A stretch of DNA of 63,693 bases. Source: an uncultured Clostridia bacterium. Its GTDB lineage: Bacteria > Bacillota > Clostridia > Christensenellales > CAG-314. This document shows, in pieces, positions 14,840 to 63,693 of this stretch. Numbering within the stretch: the stretch's first letter is position 1; every line of letters starts with the position of its first letter. Made by a program: the position numbers and the translations under genes. A model generated the notes under the pieces. It was not told where the DNA came from. It did no database searches and saw nothing but the letters and a program-made list of their open reading frames with translations. The DNA lies in NCBI GenBank assembly GCA_947589685.1, contig CANQCN010000002.1, positions 1-63,693 on the forward strand, read 5' to 3'.

Positions 14840-16660
14840 TCATTTCTTGTCGTCGTCGTGAACGTCGTACTTTACTTCGCTGCCGTCCGCTTGCTGCGAC
14901 GATTGCTGAGCTTGTTGCGCTTGTTGATAGAACTTTTGGAAAATTCCCGCGGAGCTTTGCGCGATGCGATCGGTCTCCGCTTTGAGTTCTTCCGTGGTTG
15001 CGCCGCTCTTGTTGAGAACTTCCTTGCCCTTGGATATTTCCTCCTCCAACTTTGCCTTGTCGTCGGCGTCCAGCTTGTCTCCGCTTTCGCGAAGGAACTG
15101 TTCGAGAGACAATATCATCTGGTCGAGCCCGTTGTGAGCCTCTACCGCTTCACGACGTTTTTTGTCCTCTTCGGCATACTTTTCGGCGTCCTTGACAGCC
15201 TTGTCGATGTCCGCCTCGGACAAATTGGTGCTGGACGTGATGGTAACGGACTGCTCCTTTTGCGTGCCGAGATCCTTTGCCGTAACATGTACGATACCGT
15301 TGGCGTCGATGTCGAACTTGACCTCGATCTGCGGTATTCCGCGCGGAGCGGGAGCTATTCCCGTCAAGCTGAAACGTCCGAGAGTTTTGTTGTCCGCAGC
15401 CATTTCGCGTTCGCCCTGCAACACGTGGATGTCAACGCTCGTCTGGTTGTCCGCCGCAGTGGAGAATATCTGCGATTTGCTGGTGGGAATGGTCGTGTTA
15501 CGCTCGATGAGGCGCGCGGTAACTCCGCCCAAAACCTCTATGCCGAGCGACAGCGGGGTCACGTCGAGCAACAGCACGTCCTTGACTTCGCCGCCCAATA
15601 CGCCGCCTTGAATCGCCGCTCCGATAGCCACGCACTCGTCGGGGTTGATACCCTTGTAGGGCTCCTTGCCGCAGTAGTTTTTGACCGCTTCCACAACGGC
15701 GGGAATACGTGTGGAGCCGCCTACGAGAATGACGCGGTTGAGGTCGTTGTTGGTCACGCCGGCGTCCTCCATTGCTTTACGCATTGGTTCGATAGTCTTT
15801 TTGATGATACCGTCGATGAGGCTCTCGAATTTTGCGCGCGTAAGCTCGATCTCCAAATGCTTGGGACCCGTTGCGTCCGCCGTGATGAAGGGCAGAGAAA
15901 CGGTGGTTTTGAGCGTTGCGGACAGCTCGATCTTTGCCTTTTCGGCTGCCTCTTTGAGACGCTGCAAAGCCTGTTTGTCGTTGCCGAGGTCGATACCGCT
16001 GGTCTTTTTGAACTCCGCGATCAGGTAGTCCATTATCAGCTTGTCGATGTCGTCGCCGCCCAAACGGTTGTTGCCGTTGGTTGCAAGCACCTCGAATACG
16101 CCGTCGCCGATTTCCAGAATGGACACGTCGAACGTGCCGCCGCCGAGGTCGTAAATAAGTATTTTTTGATTTTTGTTTTCACCCTTGTCCAGACCGTAAG
16201 CAAGAGCCGCAGCCGTGGGTTCGTTGATGATACGCAACACCTCCAACCCCGCGATCTTGCCAGCGTCCTTGGTCGCCTGACGCTGCGCGTCGCTGAAATA
16301 CGCGGGTACGGTGATGACTGCCTGCGTCACCTTTTCGCCGAGATATGCCTCCGCGTCCGCTTTGAGCTTGCTCAAAATGATGGCGGAGATCTCCTGCGGC
16401 GAGTAATGCTTGCCGTCGATGTTGACGGTGTAGTTGCTGCCCATTTCGCGCTTTATCGACAACACCGTTCTGTCGGCGTTGACGACCGCCTGACGCTTTG
16501 CCACTTGTCCTACCAAGCGCTCGCCGTCCTTGGTAAACGCAACGATGGACGGTGTGGTCCTGTTTCCTTCCGCATTGGCTATTACCGTAGGCTCGCCGCC
16601 TTCCAGCACCGCAACGCAGCTGTTTGTCGTACCGAGGTCTATTCCTATAATTTTTCCCAT
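14840..16660 (-). CDS. dnaK: Molecular chaperone DnaK (Hsp70)
   Basis: [21 protein letters not shown], and an overall Hsp70 pattern. 606 aa. Confidence 0.97.
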
Positions 16661-16723
16661 AATATATCTCCTTTCATTATTTTATTTGTTTTGCCCCATG
16701 CGGGGTCGACTGTTAAGTCAAAC

Positions 16724-17317
16724 TTATGCGCCCACTATCACTTCGGCATAGCGCAGCACTTTTTCGCCCAAAACGTAGCCTTTTTTGTACACCTCGACCA
16801 CCACGTCTTTGTTGTCCTCGCCGCGGTCGATCTTGGACAAGGCGTTCATCCTGAGCGGATCGAACGGTTTGCCGAGAACGTCCATTTCCTCCACGCCGAA
16901 TTCGCGCAGTATGCGGACGAATTGAACGTAGATCATTTCGAATGCTTTGAGATTGTCGCCGTCGAGATGTTGCTTTGCAAGGTCGAAGTTGTCGCATACG
17001 GCGATGAGCTTGGTCACCACGGCGGTGACGCCTTCCGTTTTGGCTTGCTCGCCGTTGAATTTCATTCGGCGTTTGTAGCTTTCGAAGTCGTTTTTCATCG
17101 CGACCAATTGGTTAAGATAGCTATCCGATTTGTCCGCCGAGCTTTGCAGCCGTTTTACCGTTTTGTGCAGCTTTTCGTTTTCCGCTTTGAGGCTTTCCGT
17201 CTCGGCGATAAGCTTTTCGTTTTCCTCCGTCAAAGCCTTTTCCAACTCCGTTTGAGTTTGTTCTATCGGCTGAGGCGCCGTCTCCGTATATTCGTTGTGT
17301 TTTTTTTCTTTACTCAT
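16724..17317 (-). CDS. grpE: Nucleotide exchange factor GrpE
   Basis: Coiled-coil N-terminus plus a GrpE C-terminal pattern (YKRRMKFNGEQAK...GKPFDPLRMNA...). Located between hrcA and dnaK. Confidence 0.9.
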   Translation of the reverse strand: MSKEKKHNEYTETAPQPIEQTQTELEKALTEENEKLIAETESLKAENEKLHKTVKRLQSSADKSDSYLNQLVAMKNDFESYKRRMKFNGEQAKTEGVTAVVTKLIAVCDNFDLAKQHLDGDNLKAFEMIYVQFVRILREFGVEEMDVLGKPFDPLRMNALSKIDRGEDNKDVVVEVYKKGYVLGEKVLRYAEVIVGA

Positions 17318-18343
17318 TTATTCTCCTTTTCCCACCAGATCGATGATGATCTCGCTGATCTTGTCCAGCACCGACAGCACCTTGCGGTAGTTCATTCGGA
17401 CGGGTCCGATGACGCCTATGCTGCCGCTTACGTTGTCGCCGAGACTTACGCGCGTGGTGACAACGGCGCAGCCTTCGGGAGCGTTTTCTTCCGATCCGAT
17501 CTTGACCGTGGTGCTTCCGTCCTCGCCGCCGTCGTTGGTAAGGATCTCCGCGATACGCTCCTTGTCCTCCATTTCGGACAGAAATTTACGCGCATTTTCC
17601 ACATTGGCGTACTCGCTGTGCGCAAGCATCTTGTTTTCGCCGTACATCTCCACGTCCATGCCGTTCATCAACGACACCTTTTTGAGTACGTCGATGATCT
17701 TTTTGAACAAGGCGTTGTACTGCGCAAATTCGTCGTTGACAAGCGCAAAGGGGTAATCGAAGTTGATAAACTCGCTTACGTGCTTGCCGCAGAAAATTTT
17801 GTTGAGCCACTTTTGCGCGCTTGCGATCATGCGTTCGTCGAAATCGTCGGGCAGATCCACCATGCCGTCCTTCAACACGCGGCTGTCGGTGACGATGACC
17901 ACCAGCAGCTTGCCGTTGCTGAGATCCAACAGCTTGATGGCTGTGATCGTGTCGGACATATCCTCTTTGACCACTACCGACGTGTAGTTGGTGATCTCCG
18001 CAATGATGTGCGTGACCGCCGTCATAACGTCTTCAAGACTGCCCACTTTGCGATTGAGGTACTGCTCGATCATTTCCGCTTCGGCAGTGGTAAGGTTGCT
18101 TTCGTACATCAGCTCGTTTACGTAAAAACGAAACGCCTTTTCCGAAGGGATACGCCCCGCCGATACGTGCGGCTGTATGAGATAACCCATGCTCTCCAAG
18201 GTCGAAAGCTCGTTGCGGATCGTCGCCGACGAACAATCGGGCAAGTACTCGTCGCGAATATCCTTGCTGGCAACGGGAGTTGCTCTTTCTATGTAACTGT
18301 CCACCACCGCGCACAGTATTTTCTTTTTTCTGTCGCTGAGCAT
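17318..18343 (-). CDS. hrcA: Heat-inducible transcription repressor HrcA
   Basis: Starts MLSDRKKKILCAVVDSYIERATPVASKDI. A CIRCE element lies upstream. Confidence 0.9.
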   Translation of the reverse strand: MLSDRKKKILCAVVDSYIERATPVASKDIRDEYLPDCSSATIRNELSTLESMGYLIQPHVSAGRIPSEKAFRFYVNELMYESNLTTAEAEMIEQYLNRKVGSLEDVMTAVTHIIAEITNYTSVVVKEDMSDTITAIKLLDLSNGKLLVVIVTDSRVLKDGMVDLPDDFDERMIASAQKWLNKIFCGKHVSEFINFDYPFALVNDEFAQYNALFKKIIDVLKKVSLMNGMDVEMYGENKMLAHSEYANVENARKFLSEMEDKERIAEILTNDGGEDGSTTVKIGSEENAPEGCAVVTTRVSLGDNVSGSIGVIGPVRMNYRKVLSVLDKISEIIIDLVGKGE

Positions 18344-18381
18344 CGGCTTCCGTGCCTCCTGTCAAGATTTTCGGCGGAGTG

Positions 18382-18408
18382 TTAGCACTCTTGCCGTTCG
18401 ACTGCTAA
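18382..18408. promoter_or_regulatory. CIRCE operator (HrcA binding site)
   Basis: TTAGCACTC-N9-GACTGCTAA against the consensus TTAGCACTC-N9-GAGTGCTAA (one mismatch). Confidence 0.85.
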
Positions 18409-56548: not shown

Positions 56549-57103
56549 CTAATCCTCATCCACTACCGTAGTTGTGGGATTGGAGATCTTTTCCAACTGA
56601 ATAAAGTCCATATCCACCGCCGTTTCGCGACCGAACATATTCAGCACCACTTGCGCCTTTTGGTGGGGTGCGTCGACGCTCTTTATCACGCCGACCAACC
56701 CTTCGAAAGGACCGGCAATGACCTTGACGCTGTCGCCGACCGTCATAGAGAAGTCCACCACGGGATCTTCCAGGCGAAGGCGCTTGACTTCGTCCTCGGT
56801 AAGAGGCCACGCCTTGCCGTTGGGACCGACGAAACCCGTTACGCCGCGGGTGTTGGTGAGCATGAACCAAAGCTGCGAAGAATAGACAAGCTTTATGAAC
56901 ACATATCCGGGCATTACCTTGGCTTCGTAGGCTTTCAACTTGCCGTTGCGGTCCTCGATGAGCGTTTCGGTGGGGATCTTGGTATCCAGGATAACGTCCT
57001 GCAAATTGCCGTTTTCCACCATTTGCTCAATGGACTTTTTTACCAGACTTTCGTAGCCCGAATAGGTGTGCAAAATATACCACTTTGCTTCGTTTGATGC
57101 CAT
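56549..57103 (-). CDS. nusG: Transcription termination/antitermination factor NusG
   Basis: KWYILHTYSGYE and the KOW motif GDSVKVIAGPFEGLVGVI. ATG at 57103 after GGAG. Confidence 0.93.
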   Translation of the reverse strand: MASNEAKWYILHTYSGYESLVKKSIEQMVENGNLQDVILDTKIPTETLIEDRNGKLKAYEAKVMPGYVFIKLVYSSQLWFMLTNTRGVTGFVGPNGKAWPLTEDEVKRLRLEDPVVDFSMTVGDSVKVIAGPFEGLVGVIKSVDAPHQKAQVVLNMFGRETAVDMDFIQLEKISNPTTTVVDED

Positions 57104-57118
57104 TTGTATCTCCAAACG

Positions 57119-57370
57119 TCAGCTGTTCCAGGGCCATACCCAACGGTGACCCGCACCGGGAAGGGTGATGAACAGATTGGCGAACAACATATCCGCGATC
57201 AAAATGATGACGCCGAACACCAAAGTGATGAGCAAAACAATACCGAGGTTTTTAAGCACGGTCTTGAATGTGGGCCAGGTTACCTTTTTAAGCTCGGACC
57301 AGCTCTTCACAAAGAAGGAACCAAGACGTTTGAAAACGTTGGGTCTTTTTGCTTTTTGTTGTGCAGCCAT
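57119..57370 (-). CDS. secE: Preprotein translocase subunit SecE
   Basis: FFVKSWSELKKVTWPT followed by one TM helix. Located between rpmG and nusG. Confidence 0.85.
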   Translation of the reverse strand: MAAQQKAKRPNVFKRLGSFFVKSWSELKKVTWPTFKTVLKNLGIVLLITLVFGVIILIADMLFANLFITLPGAGHRWVWPWNS

Positions 57371-57382
57371 ATGACTATCTCC

Positions 57383-57550
57383 TTACTTAGCTTCTCTGTG
57401 AACGGTATGCTTTTTGCAAAATCTGCAATACTTGTTGCGTTCCAATCTGTCGGTGGTATTTTTGCTGTTTTTGAAAGTGTCGTAGTTGCGTTGTTTGCAC
57501 TCGCTGCACGCAAGCACAACCTTGACTCTGTTACCTTTCTTCGCTGCCAT
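57383..57550 (-). CDS. rpmG: 50S ribosomal protein L33
   Basis: [55 protein letters not shown]. Confidence 0.92.
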
Positions 57551-57816
57551 AATTTTCTCCTGTTTGTGTCGCAACGATAAAAAATTGCGCACGCAAAAAA
57601 TTACACCCCATTCAGAAGTGCAAGAGTATGATAACATACGTAAAGAATATTGTCAACTAAAATGTCGTCGTTTCCCGCAAAAAATGTGAAAAATTGCGCG
57701 CTTGCGCCGATGATCGCCGCTTGCGAATTTCAAAAAATCGGGTATTGACATTTGAAGTTACATATATTAAAATATATATCCACCTTTAATAATATCCAAG
57801 AGGAGATTGACCCGAT

Positions 57817-58230
57817 ATGACAGACTACAAAGCATTGGTAAAAGAAGCTTACGAGGCGCAAAAGCGCGCTTACTGTCCCTACTCTCATTGGTCGGTCGGC
57901 GCGGCTTTGCTGACAAAAAGCGGAAAAATTTATCGCGGATGCAACATCGAAAACAACACGTTTACCCCCACCGTGTGCGCCGAACGCGTGGCGATATTCA
58001 AAGCGGTATCGGAGGGCGAACGAGACTTTGCCGCAATTGCCATAGTAGGCAACGACGTTAACACCGAGATAGGCAAGGGGGACGTGTGCCCACCCTGCGG
58101 CGTGTGCAGACAAGTTATGGCGGAATTTTGCCCGCAGCAATTTGAGATAATTCTCGGCAAAAGCTACGACGAATACGAGGTGTACACCTTGGCGGAATTG
58201 ATGCCAAAGGTGAGCTTGCCATTAAAATAA
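57817..58230 (+). CDS. cdd: Cytidine deaminase
   Basis: CAERVAIFKAVSEG and PCGVCRQVMAEF zinc-ligand motifs. 137 aa. Confidence 0.9.
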   Translation: MTDYKALVKEAYEAQKRAYCPYSHWSVGAALLTKSGKIYRGCNIENNTFTPTVCAERVAIFKAVSEGERDFAAIAIVGNDVNTEIGKGDVCPPCGVCRQVMAEFCPQQFEIILGKSYDEYEVYTLAELMPKVSLPLK

Positions 58231-58585
58231 GCCGACTCGTACATTCGGTGAAAAAGGGCTTCACGACGGGCGCCGTACAAATCAATTTTGTGCGGTGACC
58301 TTTTTTTGTTGATTTTACGGCGCGCGGGTATTCCGCGCAAAAAGGCTTCGCTTCGGGCGTCGCACATTTTAGTCAAACACAAATAGACTTGTGCGCCACC
58401 CTCGTTGCAGATTATTTTGCGTTGGAACACCCTTGCGCCTTGTGTATTGGGTCAATCAAAAGCAATATTTTTTATCAAAAAGCTTTATTTGTGCGGCACC
58501 CTTGTTGCAGATTATTTTTCATCGAATACTCTCACTTGGGTGTCACAAGGTCCCCGACCGCCCACCCCTATTCGCAGATATGAAG
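58231..58585 (-). repeat. SIR copy 5 (module A fragment plus tandemly duplicated module B), minus strand
   Basis: The reverse complement carries GCGAATAGGGGTGGG (58561-58575, identical to 127-141). It also has two AAATAATCTGCAAC boxes exactly 100 nt apart (58399-58419 and 58499-58519). Two GAAGCCNTTTTNCNCNGAAT submodules lie at 58235-58265 and 58320-58350. Confidence 0.75.
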
Positions 58586-58732
58586 TATGCAACTGAAAAA
58601 AATTATTTCGAGTATATGATCGACCTTTATATAGAGCTTTTTTATGCACTTTTGCCGCAAGCGACGTTAAAAGTCAAGACTTTGCACCACTTTGCCAATA
58701 TGCACATATGAGCAAGTGCGATATGTTCAAAT

Positions 58733-58770
58733 GCGTAAAAGTAAAGCGCCCGCTTGGAGTGCAGGCGCTT
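58733..58770 (-). terminator. Terminator after the giant ORF
   Basis: On the minus strand, AAGCGCCTGC...GCGGGCGCTT is followed by TTTACTTTTAC. Confidence 0.55.
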
Positions 58771-58789
58771 TGATTTTGTGAATATCGGA

Positions 58790-61700
58790 TCAGACGGTGT
58801 AGCCATCTGCCCAAACGTTGGGGTTTTTCCACATTTGTTTCAAGTCGGAAGTAAAGTACCAAGCGGTACCGTATCCCGGCGTTGTGTGGTCGAGGTCGAA
58901 ATTGATATGTACAATACTGATTATGTTCAGTCCGCCACACAATCTTTTCAGCTTGATTGCTGCCAACTTGTCGGCTTTATACTCATAACGACCGGTTTCT
59001 TTGTTAAACCACATCAACCCTTCAAAACTGCCAGAATGATGGATCTTAACATCCAACGTACCCAATGCACTGGAAATGGGACTCAAATTGGCTTTGATCT
59101 CGAACTGTTTGTATCCAGCGACCGCATTACCTTTGTTGTCGGTGGCGTCGCCGTAGTTGTAGGACTCGCCCGTATCCAGAATATCCTCTATACCGTAGTC
59201 CACACCGAACACCTTAGCATTGGGATCGTTGATCTTGTCGATTATCAGATTTTCAATAGTGCTTTCAAAGTTGAGCAATTCGAACAGATACCTTTTGTTT
59301 TGTATCAAGTTGTCGAGAAATACTTCCGGTGAGATGTTCGTCTCGTTATATGCGTATTTCATATCAAAGTCCGAGTCCAACTTGTTATCCACAGGCTTGA
59401 TTTTCTTTGCGCCGCAATTATTGCAATCGTACTTAAACGTAAAGTCAAATCTATACTTAATGTTTGTAGAGCCGCATTGCGGACATCTGTTGTTCAACCG
59501 CGAATCCCTATAAATATTAAATACGGGATTTCCTCCGTTTGTAGCAAATGTTAAGTATGAGTTGCCGCCTTTGTCTTCAAATACGTTTTTGTCCGGTCGT
59601 ACCAATCGTACTGCGAAGTAACTGTCGCCATGTTCGTCTATATCGGCATACATTGTCATGTCTATATCAACGTTGTATATAGACAATATGTCGATATGCA
59701 GAGTACCCTTTATTTCAAACGACCTTCTGCCGCTTGTATCCTCGTTACCTGCGGTTATCACAAGCGCGGCGGCAAGTTCGTAGATGCTGTCCATATCCAT
59801 ATGGTTGCCCATATTGTGACCGCTTACGTTGTACTTGTTGAAGTTTTCCGCTGTGCTTGGGCTGCCCGTAGCGTCGCCGTTCGTGTCATTGTCCGCGAGG
59901 TATGCGTTGATACATTGATCGACGTAGTCGTACGTGCGCGTGTCGGCGGTAGAGTCTTCGCCCTTGTCGCCGTGGAAAGGCGAGGCGGTGACGCTTACGT
60001 TGTTGAGGTCTATCGATATGCCGTCGTAGGACAATTTCAGATTGTTGACGAGAAGTCCGTTGCCGACGGGATTGCCGTTAGTTGTGTTGTTTATGCAGGG
60101 TTGTACGTCGAGGTTGATGTCGCCCAGCTTGTCGCTAAACGCCGAACCGCGCAACGCAATGTCGAAATTGTTGGGATAACCGCCGTAAGAAACGGACTTG
60201 ATGAGCCGCGCCACGCGTCCCAACTGCAACTTGGGCATGTTGCTCTGCGCTTCCGAGATCATACTTTGGACGCTGTCGACAAGCTTGCCGATAGCTCCGT
60301 TCAATACGCTGTCCAACGCGTCTTTGAGACCTATCACATCCTGCAACGAATCGAGGTTCAACGTAGCGCGAAGCACACCGTCGCGATTGCTGCTTGTGTC
60401 GTAGCTGACGTACAAACGCGACTTGGGCTTGACTGTCATCTTGTTGCCCTCGTAGACGGTCTGCTGCGTGCGCAGCAACGCCACGTCGAGAATGACCATC
60501 TCGTTGTAGTTGCTTTCGCCGTTGGCTTTCTTCAACAGCGTGAACTTTGCCCTGAGTTGCAACGAATTGAGCAGGTCGAACAGCATTGCGTAACCCTCTT
60601 GTTTGTCCTTCTTGAAGGTGTCGATGAGGGTGTTCATACTGAATACCGTATCCGATTTGTTGAAGTAGAACGCAATGTAAGAGCCGCTCTGTATGCGATA
60701 GCTGTCGGTGACGGAGACGCCTTGCTCGTTTTTCGAGGTTATGTTGATCTCCGATGTCGTTTCGGTTTCTTTGTTATCCGTAAAGTCGAACCGCCAGGCG
60801 TTGGTGTTGACAAGGTCGTAGATGACGCCGCTTTCGGTCGTGTTGAGTTCGCCGTCCGTGCGACCGTAGAACAAGTCGTCGAGTACGCCGTCCAGCGACA
60901 CGTAGGAAGCTCCATTCTTCGTTATGTCTTCGTCGATGTCCTTTGCAAAATCGCTATGCGCGTCCGCCACGCCGTCTTTCAACGTCAATGTCGTGCCGTC
61001 GAATATGCTGCTTATGTCGATGTCGGCGGTAAGCTTGCTGTTGCTCAACAACGCTTCTACGCCAAAGCCCATTGCGTTCAATGTTACGCCGACGCCCTTT
61101 TCGCCGTGAACAAAGCGAAGAGATCTGAGTATTTCCGCAAGGTCGAACCCGTCGCCGAACAGGTTGGGAAGGTCGAAATTGTTGCCCTCCTTGGCTACAC
61201 GGTTGACTATCTTCTGCACCTCGTTGACAAGCTTGCCGATCTCGCTTATGTTGACGGACGTGCGGGCGTTTTCGTGGTTGGATATCCACAGCTTGTTGAG
61301 CCCTATGTCGTATTTGACAAATAGCTTGTACATCGCCTTGTCCGTTGCCTCGTTACGCTCGTCTTGCGAATCGATCCGGACATACACCGCTTTTTTGTCG
61401 AGGTCGACGCGGACGTGAACTGTGTTGGTTACGCCCGAATCGTCATTGACGGAAATGTCGAGGTTGGTGGTCCAATCTTCATCGTCCGACGGAGCGACGA
61501 AACCGTCGTTGGCAGAAACGGTAAGCTTGTTTATTTCAAGCGCGATATTTTTGTACGCAAACCCGTTGAGAACAAGCGTCAAACCGTTGTTATCCGACGT
61601 GGGCTGCACCGTTGCGGTGATCTCCGGAACGGTCCAATCGCTGCCGTCTACTTTTAACGTCAATGCGCCCTCGTTGACGGAGAGCTGCAAGCCGTTGCCG

Positions 61701-63693
61701 CTGCGCTTTACGCCCACGATATTCGTGACGTCGAGGGACAGCAGATCGGTGTGCGCCACGGCTCGGACAAGCTCCAACAGATCGTCAAGGTACGTGTTGT
61801 ATCCTTTCAAGCCGTCCAACGTGCCGTCGATATCCTCCAAAGCCGTTGCTTCGGGGTCGTCCTTGGCGCCGTCAAGAGCGACTCTGAGTTTGATACCGCC
61901 GACGTTAACGTAAAGCTTGCCGCCATAGAGCCACAAATTGCCGCCCTCAACGAGAGCTTTGCCGTTGTAATGTATCGACTCTATCTTTATATATACGTCC
62001 GAACCGAGCGTAGTGATGGTCGCGGTGATCTTGTAGACGTTTTCGCCCAAAGTGAGCGTGACGCTATCCAATTTGACGGAGTAGCCACTCGCTTTCATCA
62101 ACGCGCCGATAGCGGGTGCAAGATCGCCGAGGGCGTCCGCCGCATCGAAGTAATCGCCTTCTTTCGCGTCGGGCAGTCCGTTGACGTCCGCGCCGATAGC
62201 CTGTTGCTTGGCAGTCGCCTCGAAGCTTCCGCCCTCGACGGTGAGCGAACCGAGAGAAACGTTTTCGTCGTCGCCGACGTTGAAGTCGGCTTTTACGGTA
62301 AGCTCTCCGAATGTGAGGTCGAGGCAATAGCCGTTGTCCGTACGAGCGTATCCGAGGCTGTCAAGCAACGACTTGATCGTGCCCGCAACGCTGCCGCCGA
62401 GGTCGAATTCGGGCATTGTTACGCCCAATTGAGCAAGAGAAGTTTTTATTTTGCCTATGTCGTTTTTGAGATCGAGCATAAGCTTTGTCTCGCCCGATTT
62501 TACGAAAAGCTTGCCCGATTTGATTTCGAACGACGCGATGTTTTCTTTGAGACTTGCCTTGCCGTAAATGCGTTCGTTGTACAGATCGATACGCAATTGA
62601 ACGTTGGCGGAAAGCTTTTGAGCGTCGTCCGCGCCGAAGGTCAAGCCGATGTTGAGATCCGTGCGGTAATCGCCGCTCGGCGCTTCGATCGAGCCCGTGT
62701 AAGCGACGATACAAGCGCTCAGCGAGCTTGCGGCAATGGTCCGTGCGCCGCTGCCGTCGTTGCCAAGGGCGATTTCGCTTGCGGCAAGCTTTGCACGCTT
62801 GTTGTCGTCAACGCCGACAGTGAACGTAACGTCGCTTGCAAGTCCCAGCTTGGAACCGGCAACGGTGAGCAAAATATTGTTGTCGTCGTAGAGCGAAATG
62901 CCGCCCACAAGGTCGGATACGGTGCGGAGCGAGACAAGCTTGTCGGGAAGTCCTTGAACAAAGTCGATGACGGCGTCCGCCGCGGCGTGTATCCCGCGAT
63001 AGCTTTCGAGCGCGTCGGTAAGGTCGTCGAGGCGGAATTCGCCCCTGTCGCCGCTTGCAGGAGCAAGGTCTATCGCTTGCTTGATACCGTTGACGTCGAG
63101 ATACAGAACTTTGCCGTCCGACTCGCTTGCGAGAACGACCTCACCTTGAATGAGGGGCAGATCGGGCTTGCCGTCCGCCTTGTCACTGACGGTAAAGGTC
63201 ACTTTGAGATCCGTGTTGTACCATATTTCCGCATTGATAGCATAGTGTTTGCCGCCCAGCGCGAGAACAAGCCCCAACGAGGCGTTTACGCCCGCATTGT
63301 CGTTGACTATCGACTTGATCTGCGCAGCTTCAAGCACGTTGTAAAGAACGTTGAGCAGCTTGTTGCCGTCGGCGTAGTCATCGTCGTTTTCGGAGGGTCC
63401 GACGATCTCGGACGGGGTTTGCATATTGGCGGTGAGCGCGACGTCGCCGAAGGTCGCGGTAAGCGAACCGAAGCTCAACACGCCGTCGGTGTTTGTGAAG
63501 TTGACGGAAATCTCCGCGCCGTCGGAAAGGAACTCGATCGCGGGTTTTTCGCCCGTGAGATCGAAGCTCAGCTTGGAAAGCAATTCCTTGACGTCGAACT
63601 TCGTATCAGAGGTATTCGTATCCGAAACGAGCGCAACTATCTTGCCGATCGCTTCGGCAATGCCGTCCGCTTGGAACATAAGGGCGATCTGCC
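58790..63693 (-). CDS. Giant beta-rich protein of unknown function (over 1,630 aa; N-terminus beyond the window) with an embedded CxxC-x16-CxxC zinc ribbon near the C-terminus
   Basis: The frame is open from the TGA at 58790-58792 to the window edge, with no stop in 63680-63691. It is rich in D/N/G/T/S/V/L with alternating-pattern segments such as GKLYVNVGGIKLRVALDG and LTLKVDGSDWTVPEITATV. The zinc ribbon is CPQCGSTNIKYRFDFTFKYDCNNCG (about 59410-59483). Confidence 0.8.
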   Translation of the reverse strand, partial: QIALMFQADGIAEAIGKIVALVSDTNTSDTKFDVKELLSKLSFDLTGEKPAIEFLSDGAEISVNFTNTDGVLSFGSLTATFGDVALTANMQTPSEIVGPSENDDDYADGNKLLNVLYNVLEAAQIKSIVNDNAGVNASLGLVLALGGKHYAINAEIWYNTDLKVTFTVSDKADGKPDLPLIQGEVVLASESDGKVLYLDVNGIKQAIDLAPASGDRGEFRLDDLTDALESYRGIHAAADAVIDFVQGLPDKLVSLRTVSDLVGGISLYDDNNILLTVAGSKLGLASDVTFTVGVDDNKRAKLAASEIALGNDGSGARTIAASSLSACIVAYTGSIEAPSGDYRTDLNIGLTFGADDAQKLSANVQLRIDLYNERIYGKASLKENIASFEIKSGKLFVKSGETKLMLDLKNDIGKIKTSLAQLGVTMPEFDLGGSVAGTIKSLLDSLGYARTDNGYCLDLTFGELTVKADFNVGDDENVSLGSLTVEGGSFEATAKQQAIGADVNGLPDAKEGDYFDAADALGDLAPAIGALMKASGYSVKLDSVTLTLGENVYKITATITTLGSDVYIKIESIHYNGKALVEGGNLWLYGGKLYVNVGGIKLRVALDGAKDDPEATALEDIDGTLDGLKGYNTYLDDLLELVRAVAHTDLLSLDVTNIVGVKRSGNGLQLSVNEGALTLKVDGSDWTVPEITATVQPTSDNNGLTLVLNGFAYKNIALEINKLTVSANDGFVAPSDDEDWTTNLDISVNDDSGVTNTVHVRVDLDKKAVYVRIDSQDERNEATDKAMYKLFVKYDIGLNKLWISNHENARTSVNISEIGKLVNEVQKIVNRVAKEGNNFDLPNLFGDGFDLAEILRSLRFVHGEKGVGVTLNAMGFGVEALLSNSKLTADIDISSIFDGTTLTLKDGVADAHSDFAKDIDEDITKNGASYVSLDGVLDDLFYGRTDGELNTTESGVIYDLVNTNAWRFDFTDNKETETTSEINITSKNEQGVSVTDSYRIQSGSYIAFYFNKSDTVFSMNTLIDTFKKDKQEGYAMLFDLLNSLQLRAKFTLLKKANGESNYNEMVILDVALLRTQQTVYEGNKMTVKPKSRLYVSYDTSSNRDGVLRATLNLDSLQDVIGLKDALDSVLNGAIGKLVDSVQSMISEAQSNMPKLQLGRVARLIKSVSYGGYPNNFDIALRGSAFSDKLGDINLDVQPCINNTTNGNPVGNGLLVNNLKLSYDGISIDLNNVSVTASPFHGDKGEDSTADTRTYDYVDQCINAYLADNDTNGDATGSPSTAENFNKYNVSGHNMGNHMDMDSIYELAAALVITAGNEDTSGRRSFEIKGTLHIDILSIYNVDIDMTMYADIDEHGDSYFAVRLVRPDKNVFEDKGGNSYLTFATNGGNPVFNIYRDSRLNNRCPQCGSTNIKYRFDFTFKYDCNNCGAKKIKPVDNKLDSDFDMKYAYNETNISPEVFLDNLIQNKRYLFELLNFESTIENLIIDKINDPNAKVFGVDYGIEDILDTGESYNYGDATDNKGNAVAGYKQFEIKANLSPISSALGTLDVKIHHSGSFEGLMWFNKETGRYEYKADKLAAIKLKRLCGGLNIISIVHINFDLDHTTPGYGTAWYFTSDLKQMWKNPNVWADGYTV

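What the first reader, a model, noticed from the sequence alone, without database searches (positions are those of the whole stretch)
58790..63693. Giant (over 1,630 aa, 5'-truncated by the window) beta-rich protein with no recognisable catalytic motif
This is the longest ORF in the window and it is still open at the edge. It has no long hydrophobic helices, no obvious enzymatic motifs and no simple tandem repeats. There are many segments with alternating polar and apolar residues typical of extended beta-sheet or groove architectures, such as GGNLWLYGGKLYVNVGGIKLRVALDG, GLQLSVNEGALTLKVDGSDWTVPEITATVQP and FEIKGTLHIDILSIYNVDIDMTMYADI. The style is reminiscent of AsmA/TamB/YhdP-like repeating beta-groove proteins or of very large surface or fibre proteins. 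Neither would be expected by default in a spore-forming, presumably monoderm Firmicute. The gene is flanked downstream by SIR copy 5.
Basis: partly seen in the sequence, partly recalled or inferred. Interest (0 to 1): 0.65.

Follow-up and report, generated by a model that had tools for sequence, protein, structure and literature searches.

The report
Giant membrane-anchored modular surface protein, uncharacterised
The window ends inside a real gene of roughly 10 kb, from an uncultured spore-forming rabbit-gut Clostridium, that encodes a fast-evolving, membrane-tethered extracellular protein built from repeated beta-rich modules and a conserved end domain; it belongs to a rare family with no name, no database model and no solved structural relative.

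Summary
The ORF is real: minus strand, 58790-63693, 1633 codons, open at the window edge. Contigs from four metagenome runs tile it, and collinear orthologues exist in about 10 MAGs.

It matches no Pfam, NCBIfam, PHROG, PADLOC or PDB sequence. An exhaustive HMMER scan of 1.84 billion representatives found only 54 relatives, all unnamed metagenomic proteins.

Full-length relatives are 1300-3412 aa. All start with one TM helix or a lipobox, followed by 2-7 diverged ~380-aa modules, then a conserved ~400-aa C-terminal domain carrying a variable Cys knuckle. The window holds three modules plus that domain.

AlphaFold2 (pLDDT 79, pTM 0.65) predicts a mixed beta/alpha fold. Foldseek finds no significant match. 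The only weak neighbours are LolA/LolB-type open barrels. No TamB, AsmA or VPS13 entry is among the 50 listed matches, and there is no credible phage fibre.

The protein is 27-50% identical between MAGs whose flanking NusG, L11 and L1 are 86-98% identical. One segment of the end domain is swapped between co-occurring strains.

In the main clade a secreted Endonuclease-I/Ig protein and a lipoprotein always lie upstream.

Best reading: a cell-surface stalk-and-head protein, adhesin-like. AsmA/TamB membership is not supported. Function is untested.

The parts
58790..63693 (-). 3' 4.9 kb of the giant gene: 1633 codons plus the stop at 58790-58792. The 5' end lies beyond the window. By analogy with the 50%-identical full-length orthologue (3361 aa), about 1730 codons are missing.
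62498..63667 (-). Module a (aa 9-398): one copy of the ~380-aa repeat. It contains the LYLDVNGIKQA motif at aa 196.
   Evidence: jackhmmer domain E 4e-71; motif positions
61313..62458 (-). Module b (aa 412-793): second copy of the repeat. The model shows two ~190-aa subdomains, each with about 11 antiparallel strands plus helices.
   Evidence: the two halves of the module are related to each other (hhalign probability 91%, E 1e-6)
59981..61216 (-). Module c (aa 826-1237): degenerate last module, richer in helix, matching profile positions 2-317.
   Evidence: jackhmmer E 4e-34; AF2 secondary structure
58793..59980 (-). C-terminal 'head' domain (aa 1238-1633). It is the most conserved part of the family. 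Nearly invariant polar residues include D1350, R1365, D1373, R1395, N1474, Y1511, Y1513 and H1552.
59414..59485 (-). Cys knuckle CPQC...CNNC (aa 1403-1426). The first CxxC is present in at least 90% of the 17 orthologues. It sits in the least conserved stretch of the head domain, and P0002 carries many more Cys pairs here.
59236..59777 (-). Strain-variable cassette (aa 1306-1486). In run X4, a 3262-nt contig that is collinear with the window on both sides carries 719 nt here instead of 542. Another contig covers the region at about 86% identity. Runs X1 and X8 carry the window allele at 99-100%.
58744..58770 (.). GC-rich hairpin directly after the stop codon, followed by a T-rich run on either strand. 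It is a possible bidirectional terminator between the giant gene and the convergent cdd gene.
   Evidence: sequence; the scan reports the + strand reading at 58751-58767; the - strand reading is by eye

Best explanation
The window holds the C-terminal half of a single-copy chromosomal gene of roughly 10 kb. Its product is tethered to the outer face of the cytoplasmic membrane by an N-terminal TM helix, or in some relatives by a lipobox. From there it extends as a rigid stalk made of tandem ~380-aa beta-rich modules. Each module is two related ~190-aa subdomains that look like open half-barrels. The stalk ends in a conserved ~400-aa C-terminal head domain that carries a variable Cys-knuckle segment.

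I read it as a cell-surface stalk-and-head protein, adhesin- or receptor-like. On this reading the module number (2-7 or more between lineages) sets how far the head is held from the membrane, through and beyond the wall. The head, whose variable segment is exchanged between strains, makes the specific contact.

**Shown:**
- the gene is real;
- the family exists and is rare;
- the domain anatomy;
- the N-terminal anchor in relatives;
- the confident model without structural relatives;
- the rapid divergence;
- the strain-variable segment;
- the gene neighbourhood.

**Inferred:**
- extracellular location, from positive-inside topology only;
- rod shape, from pTM and the tandem anatomy, because no coordinates were available;
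- the binding role of the head.
For: **Anchor.** Every full-length relative starts with a short basic tail plus a ~20-residue hydrophobic helix, or with a lipobox.

**Modules.** Each protein has 2-7 modules, and the count differs between MAGs whose NusG is 86-94% identical to the window's.

**Fold.** The AF2 model has pLDDT 79.2 and pTM 0.65 over 1200 aa. That argues for a fixed arrangement of domains rather than beads on flexible linkers.

**Fast evolution.** The giant protein is 50% identical to L004 and 27% to L012. In the same loci cdd is 90% and 77% identical, NusG 89% and 86%, L11 96% and 88%, and L1 93% and 91%.

**Head domain.** It is the most conserved part, at 0.57-0.68 identity to close orthologues, but it contains the least conserved stretch at 0.28. 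A segment is replaced between strains of one metagenome.

**Composition.** Acidic throughout, pI 4.3-4.8, with no internal TM helix.

**Not mobile.** There are no relatives in IMG/VR, INPHARED or PLSDB. The context is housekeeping and syntenic.
Against: - No binding domain, sortase signal, SLH or CWB2 domain was recognised.
- The N-terminal anchor with a distal C-terminus is the reverse of classical LPXTG adhesins.
- The only structural neighbours, though weak, are lipid- or hydrophobic-ligand-binding open barrels: LolA3 at probability 0.91 with TM 0.30, and LolB at 0.72 with TM 0.35. These point towards the rival reading.
- A Cys4 knuckle is unusual outside the cell.
- No expression data were found: no RNA runs were listed.
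Confidence: 0.45

Rival explanations
1. Envelope-spanning conduit for lipids, lipoproteins or other hydrophobic cargo. On this reading the tandem open half-barrels line up into a long groove anchored in the membrane. It would work like AsmA/TamB/YhdP or a chain of LolA-like carriers, and would serve an outer layer of the cell or the forespore membranes.
For: - The N-terminal anchor followed by a long beta-rich array is the same layout as TamB or YhdP.
- The best Foldseek probabilities are all for open-barrel proteins, most of them binders of lipids or other hydrophobic ligands: LolA3 0.91, LolB 0.72, BFA1 0.63, HphA 0.63 and MucB 0.41.
- The modules are fairly hydrophobic, with GRAVY about 0 and Leu at 12%.
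- The host sporulates, so it transiently has two membranes.
Against: - No AsmA-clan or LolA-clan Pfam hit in any member.
- TM-scores are at most 0.35, and no PDB match has E <= 1e-3.
- Such rapid divergence, a strain-variable head and a very narrow taxonomic range are not what I would expect of core envelope machinery (expectation from memory).
- No outer-membrane partner gene lies nearby.
Confidence: 0.15
2. Partner of the neighbouring secreted nuclease and lipoprotein. The three gene products would form a surface apparatus for capturing and degrading extracellular DNA, for example under phosphate limitation, with the giant protein acting as scaffold or trap.
For: - An Endonuclease_1 + Big_2 protein and a ~200-aa lipoprotein lie directly upstream of the giant gene in 11 of 11 loci where enough upstream DNA is available. 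Flanks otherwise differ, as in L025.
- The giant gene's promoter carries a conserved TTTAC-N6-TTTAC direct repeat 10 nt upstream of the -10 box.
- That repeat has the half-site and 11-bp periodicity reported for the B. subtilis PHO box (PMC11870197). Its placement just upstream of the -10 box also recalls Pho promoters, from memory.
Against: - A terminator separates the nuclease-lipoprotein pair from the giant gene, and the nuclease promoters lack the box.
- Two clades of the family (P0002 and P0036) have no nuclease or lipoprotein next to the gene.
- The protein is strongly acidic, which argues against direct DNA binding.
- The identity of the regulator is unknown.
Confidence: 0.15
3. Sporulation- or spore-associated structure, such as an appendage, an exosporium anchor or a link between mother cell and forespore.
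For: The host carries spoIIGA. The family is limited to Clostridia-type MAGs.
Against: - No sporulation-type promoter is evident. The conserved promoter has a sigma-70-like -10 box plus an activator box.
- The gene sits next to the rpmG-secE-nusG housekeeping cluster.
- Nothing else links it to sporulation.
Confidence: 0.05
4. Phage-derived fibre, polymorphic toxin or assembly artefact.
For: Only the size and the lack of annotation.
Against: - No PHROG hit.
- No credible BFVD fold match.
- No relatives in IMG/VR, phage or plasmid records.
- The C-terminus is the conserved part, not a variable toxin tip, and no immunity gene follows. The next gene downstream is a convergent cdd.
- The ORF is tiled by independent assemblies.
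Confidence: 0.02

Closest known systems
Giant stalk-and-head surface proteins of Gram-positive bacteria (Ebh, SasG/Aap, Rib-domain and other repeat-stalk adhesins; comparison from memory, not tested)
   Same: - Very large and acidic.
- A tandem array of rigid repeated domains whose copy number varies between lineages.
- A distinct terminal domain.
- Fast evolution.
- A chromosomal, single-copy gene.
   Different: - The anchor is an N-terminal TM helix or lipobox, not a C-terminal LPXTG. The window protein ends ...VWADGYTV with no sorting signal.
- The repeat unit is ~380 aa, made of two ~190-aa half-barrel-like subdomains, rather than small Ig-like, G5-E, Rib or helical-bundle repeats.
- There is no sequence or fold match to any of them.
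AsmA-like / repeating beta-groove proteins (TamB, YhdP, AsmA; eukaryotic VPS13/ATG2)
   Same: - N-terminal membrane anchor.
- Length in the thousands of residues.
- Runs of about 4-6 beta strands separated by helices in the model.
- No enzymatic motif.
   Different: - No AsmA, AsmA_1/2, DUF748, DUF3971 or TamB (DUF490) hit.
- None of these is among the 50 listed Foldseek PDB matches.
- The host is a spore-forming Clostridium with no known outer membrane.
- The protein evolves rapidly and is restricted to a few MAG lineages.
LolA/LolB/RseB(MucB)-type open beta-barrel domains
   Same: Each ~190-aa subdomain has about 11 antiparallel strands plus helices, which is the size and composition of a LolA-like domain. 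LolA3, LolB, MucB and a 'lipoprotein-sorting protein domain' are among the Foldseek matches with the highest probabilities.
   Different: - TM-scores are only 0.20-0.35, with E > 1e-3.
- No Pfam LolA-clan hit.
- Known members are single- or two-domain periplasmic proteins, not arrays of a dozen or more units.
- Homology is not established.

Membership tests
AsmA-like clan (AsmA/TamB/YhdP) | Sequence match to AsmA, AsmA_1, AsmA_2, DUF748, DUF3971 or TamB/DUF490 profiles | tested here: not met
   No such Pfam hit at E <= 1 in the window protein or in 17 orthologous C-terminal halves. None at E <= 0.01 in six distant full-length members. None at E <= 0.1 in the first 1000-2000 aa of two full-length relatives.
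AsmA-like clan (AsmA/TamB/YhdP) | N-terminal signal-anchor TM helix | tested here: met
   Present in all full-length relatives. It cannot be seen in the window because the 5' end is missing.
AsmA-like clan (AsmA/TamB/YhdP) | Continuous beta-taco with a hydrophobic groove; fold match to solved TamB, VPS13 or ATG2 fragments | tested here: inconclusive
   The confident model (pLDDT 79) gave no PDB match at E <= 1e-3, and no AsmA-like entry appears among the 50 matches shown. Coordinates could not be inspected, so the groove geometry is unknown.
AsmA-like clan (AsmA/TamB/YhdP) | Diderm host with an outer-membrane partner (for example TamA) | tested here: inconclusive
   The host is labelled Clostridia, Clostridiales or Oscillospiraceae and carries spoIIGA. 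No Omp85-type gene lies in the neighbourhoods seen. Whole genomes were not searched.
LolA/LolB-like open barrels | 11-stranded unclosed barrel with helical plug; sequence or fold match | tested here: inconclusive
   Strand and helix counts per subdomain fit. Foldseek gives LolA3 at probability 0.91 with TM 0.30, and LolB at 0.72 with TM 0.35. There is no Pfam hit.
Sortase-anchored (LPXTG) adhesins | C-terminal LPXTG motif, hydrophobic stretch and basic tail | tested here: not met
   The C-terminus reads ...MWKNPNVWADGYTV*. There is no hydrophobic stretch in the last 100 aa.
S-layer / wall-bound proteins | SLH, CWB2 or other wall-binding repeats | tested here: not met
   No Pfam hit of this kind.
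Phage tail fibres / receptor-binding proteins | PHROG or fold match; prophage context | tested here: not met
   - PHROGs: only E > 0.04 zinc-ribbon noise.
- BFVD: best probability 0.41 with TM <= 0.29.
- No relatives in IMG/VR or INPHARED.
- Neighbours are cdd, nusG, rplK and rplA.
Polymorphic toxins (Rhs/YD, LXG, CdiA-like) | Conserved trafficking and repeat part, hypervariable C-terminal toxin tip, downstream immunity gene | tested here: not met
   The C-terminal domain is the most conserved region. The gene downstream is a convergent cytidine deaminase that is conserved with the ribosomal cluster. No Rhs, YD or LXG hits.

The most novel reading that the evidence does not exclude
The family is a previously unseen kind of bridge-like transfer protein in a monoderm or sporulating Firmicute. 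A membrane-anchored chain of a dozen or more LolA-like open barrels would form one long hydrophobic conduit. It would carry lipids or lipoproteins from the cytoplasmic membrane to an outer layer of the cell or of the developing spore. It would have evolved independently of the AsmA/TamB and VPS13 lineages.
Probability: 0.12. Interest if true: 0.85.

Novelty: new variant of a known kind. Interest (0 to 1): 0.55.

Why it matters
The family is an unnamed piece of gut-microbiome dark matter: about 50 clusters among 1.84 billion representatives, and none from a cultured organism.

**If it is a surface stalk.** It offers a new building block, the double half-barrel module, and an inverted topology for Gram-positive surface display. 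Its strain-variable head would mark a locus under strong selection, perhaps from phage, host IgA or ligand specificity, in commensal Clostridia.

**If the weak LolA-like resemblance is real and the units form a conduit.** It would be the first bridge-type hydrophobic-cargo transporter in a monoderm or sporulating Firmicute.

**What is testable either way.**
- The conserved trio: secreted nuclease, lipoprotein and giant protein.
- The dedicated response-regulator-type promoter box.

**Practical note.** The gene's repeats or its strain variability may fragment assemblies. Several MAG contigs break inside it.

Tried and rejected
**Sequence-family searches that found nothing.**
- Pfam, PHROGs, NCBIfam and PADLOC on the window protein, on orthologues and on distant members gave nothing above noise.
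- Two PDB sequence-profile searches found nothing.

**Word-indexed homologue search.** Two searches returned only P0001 and P0002. The exhaustive HMMER search was needed to see the family.

**Structure prediction.**
- AF2 with a 3-sequence alignment failed, with pLDDT 36.
- The 47-row alignment worked.

**Attempts to recover more of the gene or family.**
- An exact-match scan of JGI metagenome contigs for the window's last 43 nt found no match. No relatives were found there either.
- No RNA-seq run was listed for the gene.

**Homology and mobility tests.**
- Lipoprotein versus the giant's N-terminal region (BLASTP) and versus the module (hhalign): no similarity.
- Phage, plasmid and virus origin: no relatives.

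**Two apparent paralogues per MAG.**
- L019/L005 look like 5' and 3' halves of one gene split at contig ends.
- L022/L006 overlap at 90.6% DNA identity over 646 nt.
- L014/L010 remain unresolved.
- I therefore make no paralogue claim.

**Intergenic repeat.** No tRNA and no Rfam family lies in 57000-58900.
Full report
**1. Observation**

The minus strand carries an ORF whose stop codon is at 58790-58792 and which is still open at base 63693. Read from 63691 it gives 1633 codons.

The window fragment has no TM-like stretch. The maximum Kyte-Doolittle mean over 19 residues is 1.38. The fragment is acidic, with pI 4.5.

Pfam, PHROGs, NCBIfam and PADLOC give only sub-threshold zinc-ribbon hits around a CPQC...CNNC pair at aa 1403-1426.

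The gene is not an assembly artefact:
- The sequence is held by rabbit-gut and other gut metagenome runs from several studies.
- Contigs from four of those runs tile the ORF at an even 5-7x depth.
- Orthologues in other MAGs align collinearly over aa 1-1633.

**2. Context**

Downstream of the gene lie a hairpin, then a 560-nt repeat-bearing spacer, then a convergent cytidine deaminase gene (57817-58230, + strand). After that, on the same strand as the giant gene, come nusG, rplK and rplA.

The same order, giant gene then cdd then nusG, rplK and rplA (with rpmG and secE called before nusG in L002), is found in the orthologous loci.

The window also carries spoIIGA, obg and ileS. It is an ordinary chromosomal region of a spore-former. 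The related records are labelled uncultured Clostridia, Clostridiales or Oscillospiraceae MAGs, many of them from rabbit gut.

**3. The family**

The word-indexed search of 5.8 billion proteins returned only two relatives.

An exhaustive HMMER search of 1.84 billion cluster representatives used a profile of aa 434-1633. It found 54 proteins at E <= 1e-3, 44 of them at E <= 1e-30. The ten clusters I checked each hold 1-5 sequences, none carries a name, and all come from metagenome assemblies.

A scan of GTDB species representatives gave 20 loci. There are no relatives in:
- JGI metagenome contigs;
- IMG/VR;
- phage records;
- plasmid records.

The family is therefore real, very rare and undescribed.

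**4. Anatomy from full-length relatives**

Complete members are 1300-3412 aa. Each begins with a short basic tail and a ~20-residue hydrophobic helix, for example MPKFKIICFIVAAVLAAVGTVVVL. In a few members a lipobox stands there instead. By the positive-inside rule the bulk of the protein should lie outside the membrane. This is an inference.

An iterated profile of the repeat maps the rest of the protein:
- an N-terminal domain of about 380 aa;
- a half module;
- 1-5 full modules of ~380 aa;
- a degenerate last module;
- a C-terminal domain of ~400 aa.

The window contains modules at aa 9-398, 412-793 and 826-1237, followed by the C-terminal domain at aa 1238-1633.

The two halves of a module are distantly related to each other (hhalign probability 91%, E 1e-6). 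The basic unit is therefore about 190 aa.

The closest full-length orthologue, L004/P0003, is 3361 aa and 50% identical. It aligns to the window protein over its residues 1730-3355. About 1730 residues are therefore missing beyond the window edge.

**5. Structure**

With three sequences AlphaFold2 failed (pLDDT 36). With 47 family members the model of aa 434-1633 reached mean pLDDT 79.2 and pTM 0.65.

The model is 41.5% strand and 23% helix. It consists of groups of 4-6 antiparallel strands separated by helices, giving about 11 strands per ~190-aa subdomain.

Foldseek against the PDB gave no match at E <= 1e-3. The highest homology probabilities are:

| Target | Probability | TM-score |
|---|---|---|
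| LolA3 | 0.91 | 0.30 |
| LolB | 0.72 | 0.35 |
| BFA1 | 0.63 | 0.19 |
| HphA (two entries) | 0.63 / 0.60 | 0.22 / 0.21 |
| MucB | 0.41 | 0.20 |

All of these are open-barrel proteins, most of them binders of lipids or other hydrophobic ligands. No TamB, YhdP, VPS13 or ATG2 entry is among the 50 matches listed.

Against predicted viral structures nothing is credible.

I could not obtain coordinates. The overall shape and the presence or absence of a continuous groove are therefore unknown. The pTM value suggests a fixed inter-domain arrangement.

**6. Evolutionary behaviour**

Identities to the window, from the same two loci:

| Protein | L004 | L012 |
|---|---|---|
| L1 | 93% | 91% |
| L11 | 96% | 88% |
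| NusG | 89% | 86% |
| Cdd | 90% | 77% |
| Giant protein | 50% | 27% |

Module number also changes over this short distance: about 3350-3410 aa in some of these MAGs against about 2370-2530 aa in others.

Along the protein, the modules are least conserved. The core of the C-terminal domain is most conserved, at 0.57-0.68 identity to close orthologues. The Cys-knuckle stretch at aa 1401-1450 is the least conserved part of that domain, at 0.28.

At strain level, a 3262-nt contig in run X4 matches the window at about 99% on both sides. It carries 719 nt in place of 59236-59777 (aa 1306-1486). A second contig covers the region at about 86% identity. Runs X1 and X8 hold the window allele.

This pattern of fast divergence and a mosaic distal domain is typical of exposed contact surfaces. 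It is not typical of conserved envelope machinery.

**7. Neighbours in relatives (outside the window)**

In 11 of 11 loci with enough upstream DNA, the giant gene is preceded by two genes:
- One encodes a signal-bearing Endonuclease_1 (PF04231, E 1e-30 to 1e-38) with 1-5 Big_2 domains.
- The other follows 4-11 nt later and encodes a ~200-aa lipoprotein with a canonical lipobox and no family hit.

This holds even where the other flanks differ, as in L025. L026 shows the lipoprotein at its contig edge. The P0002 and P0036 clades lack the pair.

A terminator follows the lipoprotein gene. The giant gene then has its own promoter: a conserved direct repeat RTTTAC-N5-RTTTAC ending about 10 nt upstream of a TAAAAT/TACAAT -10 box.
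- The exact pattern occurs just upstream of the giant gene in 12 loci, including the P0002 clade, and only rarely elsewhere in them.
- It is absent upstream of the nuclease genes.
- It is at chance level in the window, with one match against 0.21 expected.

The half-site and its 11-bp periodicity match what is reported for the B. subtilis PHO box, TT(A/T/C)ACA-like repeats (PMC11870197). From memory, the box's position just upstream of the -10 box also fits OmpR/PhoB-family activator sites in general. Which regulator binds it is unknown.

**8. Interpretation**

The best-supported reading is a membrane-tethered, extracellular stalk-and-head protein. A variable number of rigid double-half-barrel modules would project a conserved C-terminal domain with a hypervariable insert. 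Functionally this is adhesin- or receptor-like. I put it at about 0.45.

| Rival reading | Confidence | Main support | Main objection |
|---|---|---|---|
| Hydrophobic-cargo conduit | ~0.15 | LolA-like resemblance and TamB-like layout | Evolutionary behaviour; all family-membership tests fail |
| Functional partnership with the nuclease and lipoprotein, perhaps in phosphate or eDNA scavenging | ~0.15 | Strict adjacency; promoter box | Separate transcription units; acidity; clades lacking the pair |
| Sporulation role | 0.05 | Host sporulates | Nothing else links it |
| Phage, toxin or artefact | 0.02 | Size and lack of annotation | Negative on every test |

**9. Comparison with the known**

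The protein resembles giant repeat-stalk adhesins of Gram-positive bacteria in logic, but not in its building blocks or its anchoring.

It resembles AsmA/TamB proteins in layout but fails the sequence and fold tests that could be run.

Its subdomains resemble LolA-type barrels too weakly to claim homology.

I therefore class it as a new variant of a known kind, the giant modular surface protein, belonging to a family that has no description.

Noticed in passing
window 58231-58789 (intergenic, between cdd and the giant gene): The spacer carries two 30-nt direct repeats (58389-58418 and 58489-58518, 93% identical, 100 nt apart). In four metagenome runs the assembler depth here reaches about 130-500x in three of the runs (38x in the fourth), against 5-7x for the flanking genes, with many alternative joints. 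No tRNA and no Rfam family lies in 57000-58900.
   Followed up: partly
L004 4634-6863; L008 4513-6922; L012 5566-8034; L025 5009-7292 (relatives; beyond the window edge): A conserved gene pair lies directly upstream of the giant gene. The first gene encodes a secreted Endonuclease I (PF04231) with 1-5 Big_2 Ig-like domains, plus a C-terminal hydrophobic tail in L012. The second encodes a ~200-aa lipoprotein with no family hit. The pair is present in 11 of 11 loci with enough upstream DNA.
   Followed up: partly
L004 6972-6987, L001 9862-9877, L025 7405-7420 and 9 other loci: A conserved TTTAC-N6-TTTAC direct repeat lies 10 nt upstream of the -10 box of the giant gene's own promoter. It occurs almost only there in each locus. 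It looks like an OmpR/PhoB-family response-regulator site of the Firmicute PHO-box type. L025 has an OmpR-type two-component system just upstream of the nuclease.
   Followed up: partly
L002 772-774 versus L003: The orthologue P0001 (1447 aa) is cut short by an in-frame TAA in the low-coverage contig L002. The 99.94%-identical MAG contig L003 has TTG there and an uninterrupted ORF. Three of the five differences between the two contigs cluster within 30 nt of this site. It is either a sequencing error or a strain-level nonsense allele.
   Followed up: yes
L014/L010, L019/L005, L022/L006 (three rabbit MAGs): In three MAGs the giant gene runs off a contig end in both directions: a 5' part on one contig and a 3' part on another. 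This suggests that assemblies break inside the gene. L022 and L006 overlap at only 90.6% DNA identity over 646 nt, which suggests strain mixtures or paralogues.
   Followed up: partly
L020 (JAMPEJ010000001.1): A contig carrying a P0002-type family member has an N-terminus nearly identical to that of the Clostridia-type protein P0002. It sits in a MAG labelled Corallococcus sp. That is probably a mis-binned or mislabelled contig.
   Followed up: no
window 14858-18385 (+): This 1175-aa ORF hits only Pfam PF10712 (NAD-GH). It overlaps three minus-strand ORFs (14840-16660, 16724-17317 and 17318-18343). It is likely an antisense artefact rather than a gene.
   Followed up: no
window 59630-61324 (+): A 564-aa ORF lies antisense to, and wholly inside, the giant gene. 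Protein-level conservation is on the minus strand, so this ORF is most likely spurious.
   Followed up: no
P0008-P0047 (shorter family members): Many members of the shorter clades end in an aromatic residue, for example ...NYSW, ...IAYW, ...KTLF and ...RTLF. The window clade instead has a conserved Trp a few residues before the end. The significance is unknown.
   Followed up: no
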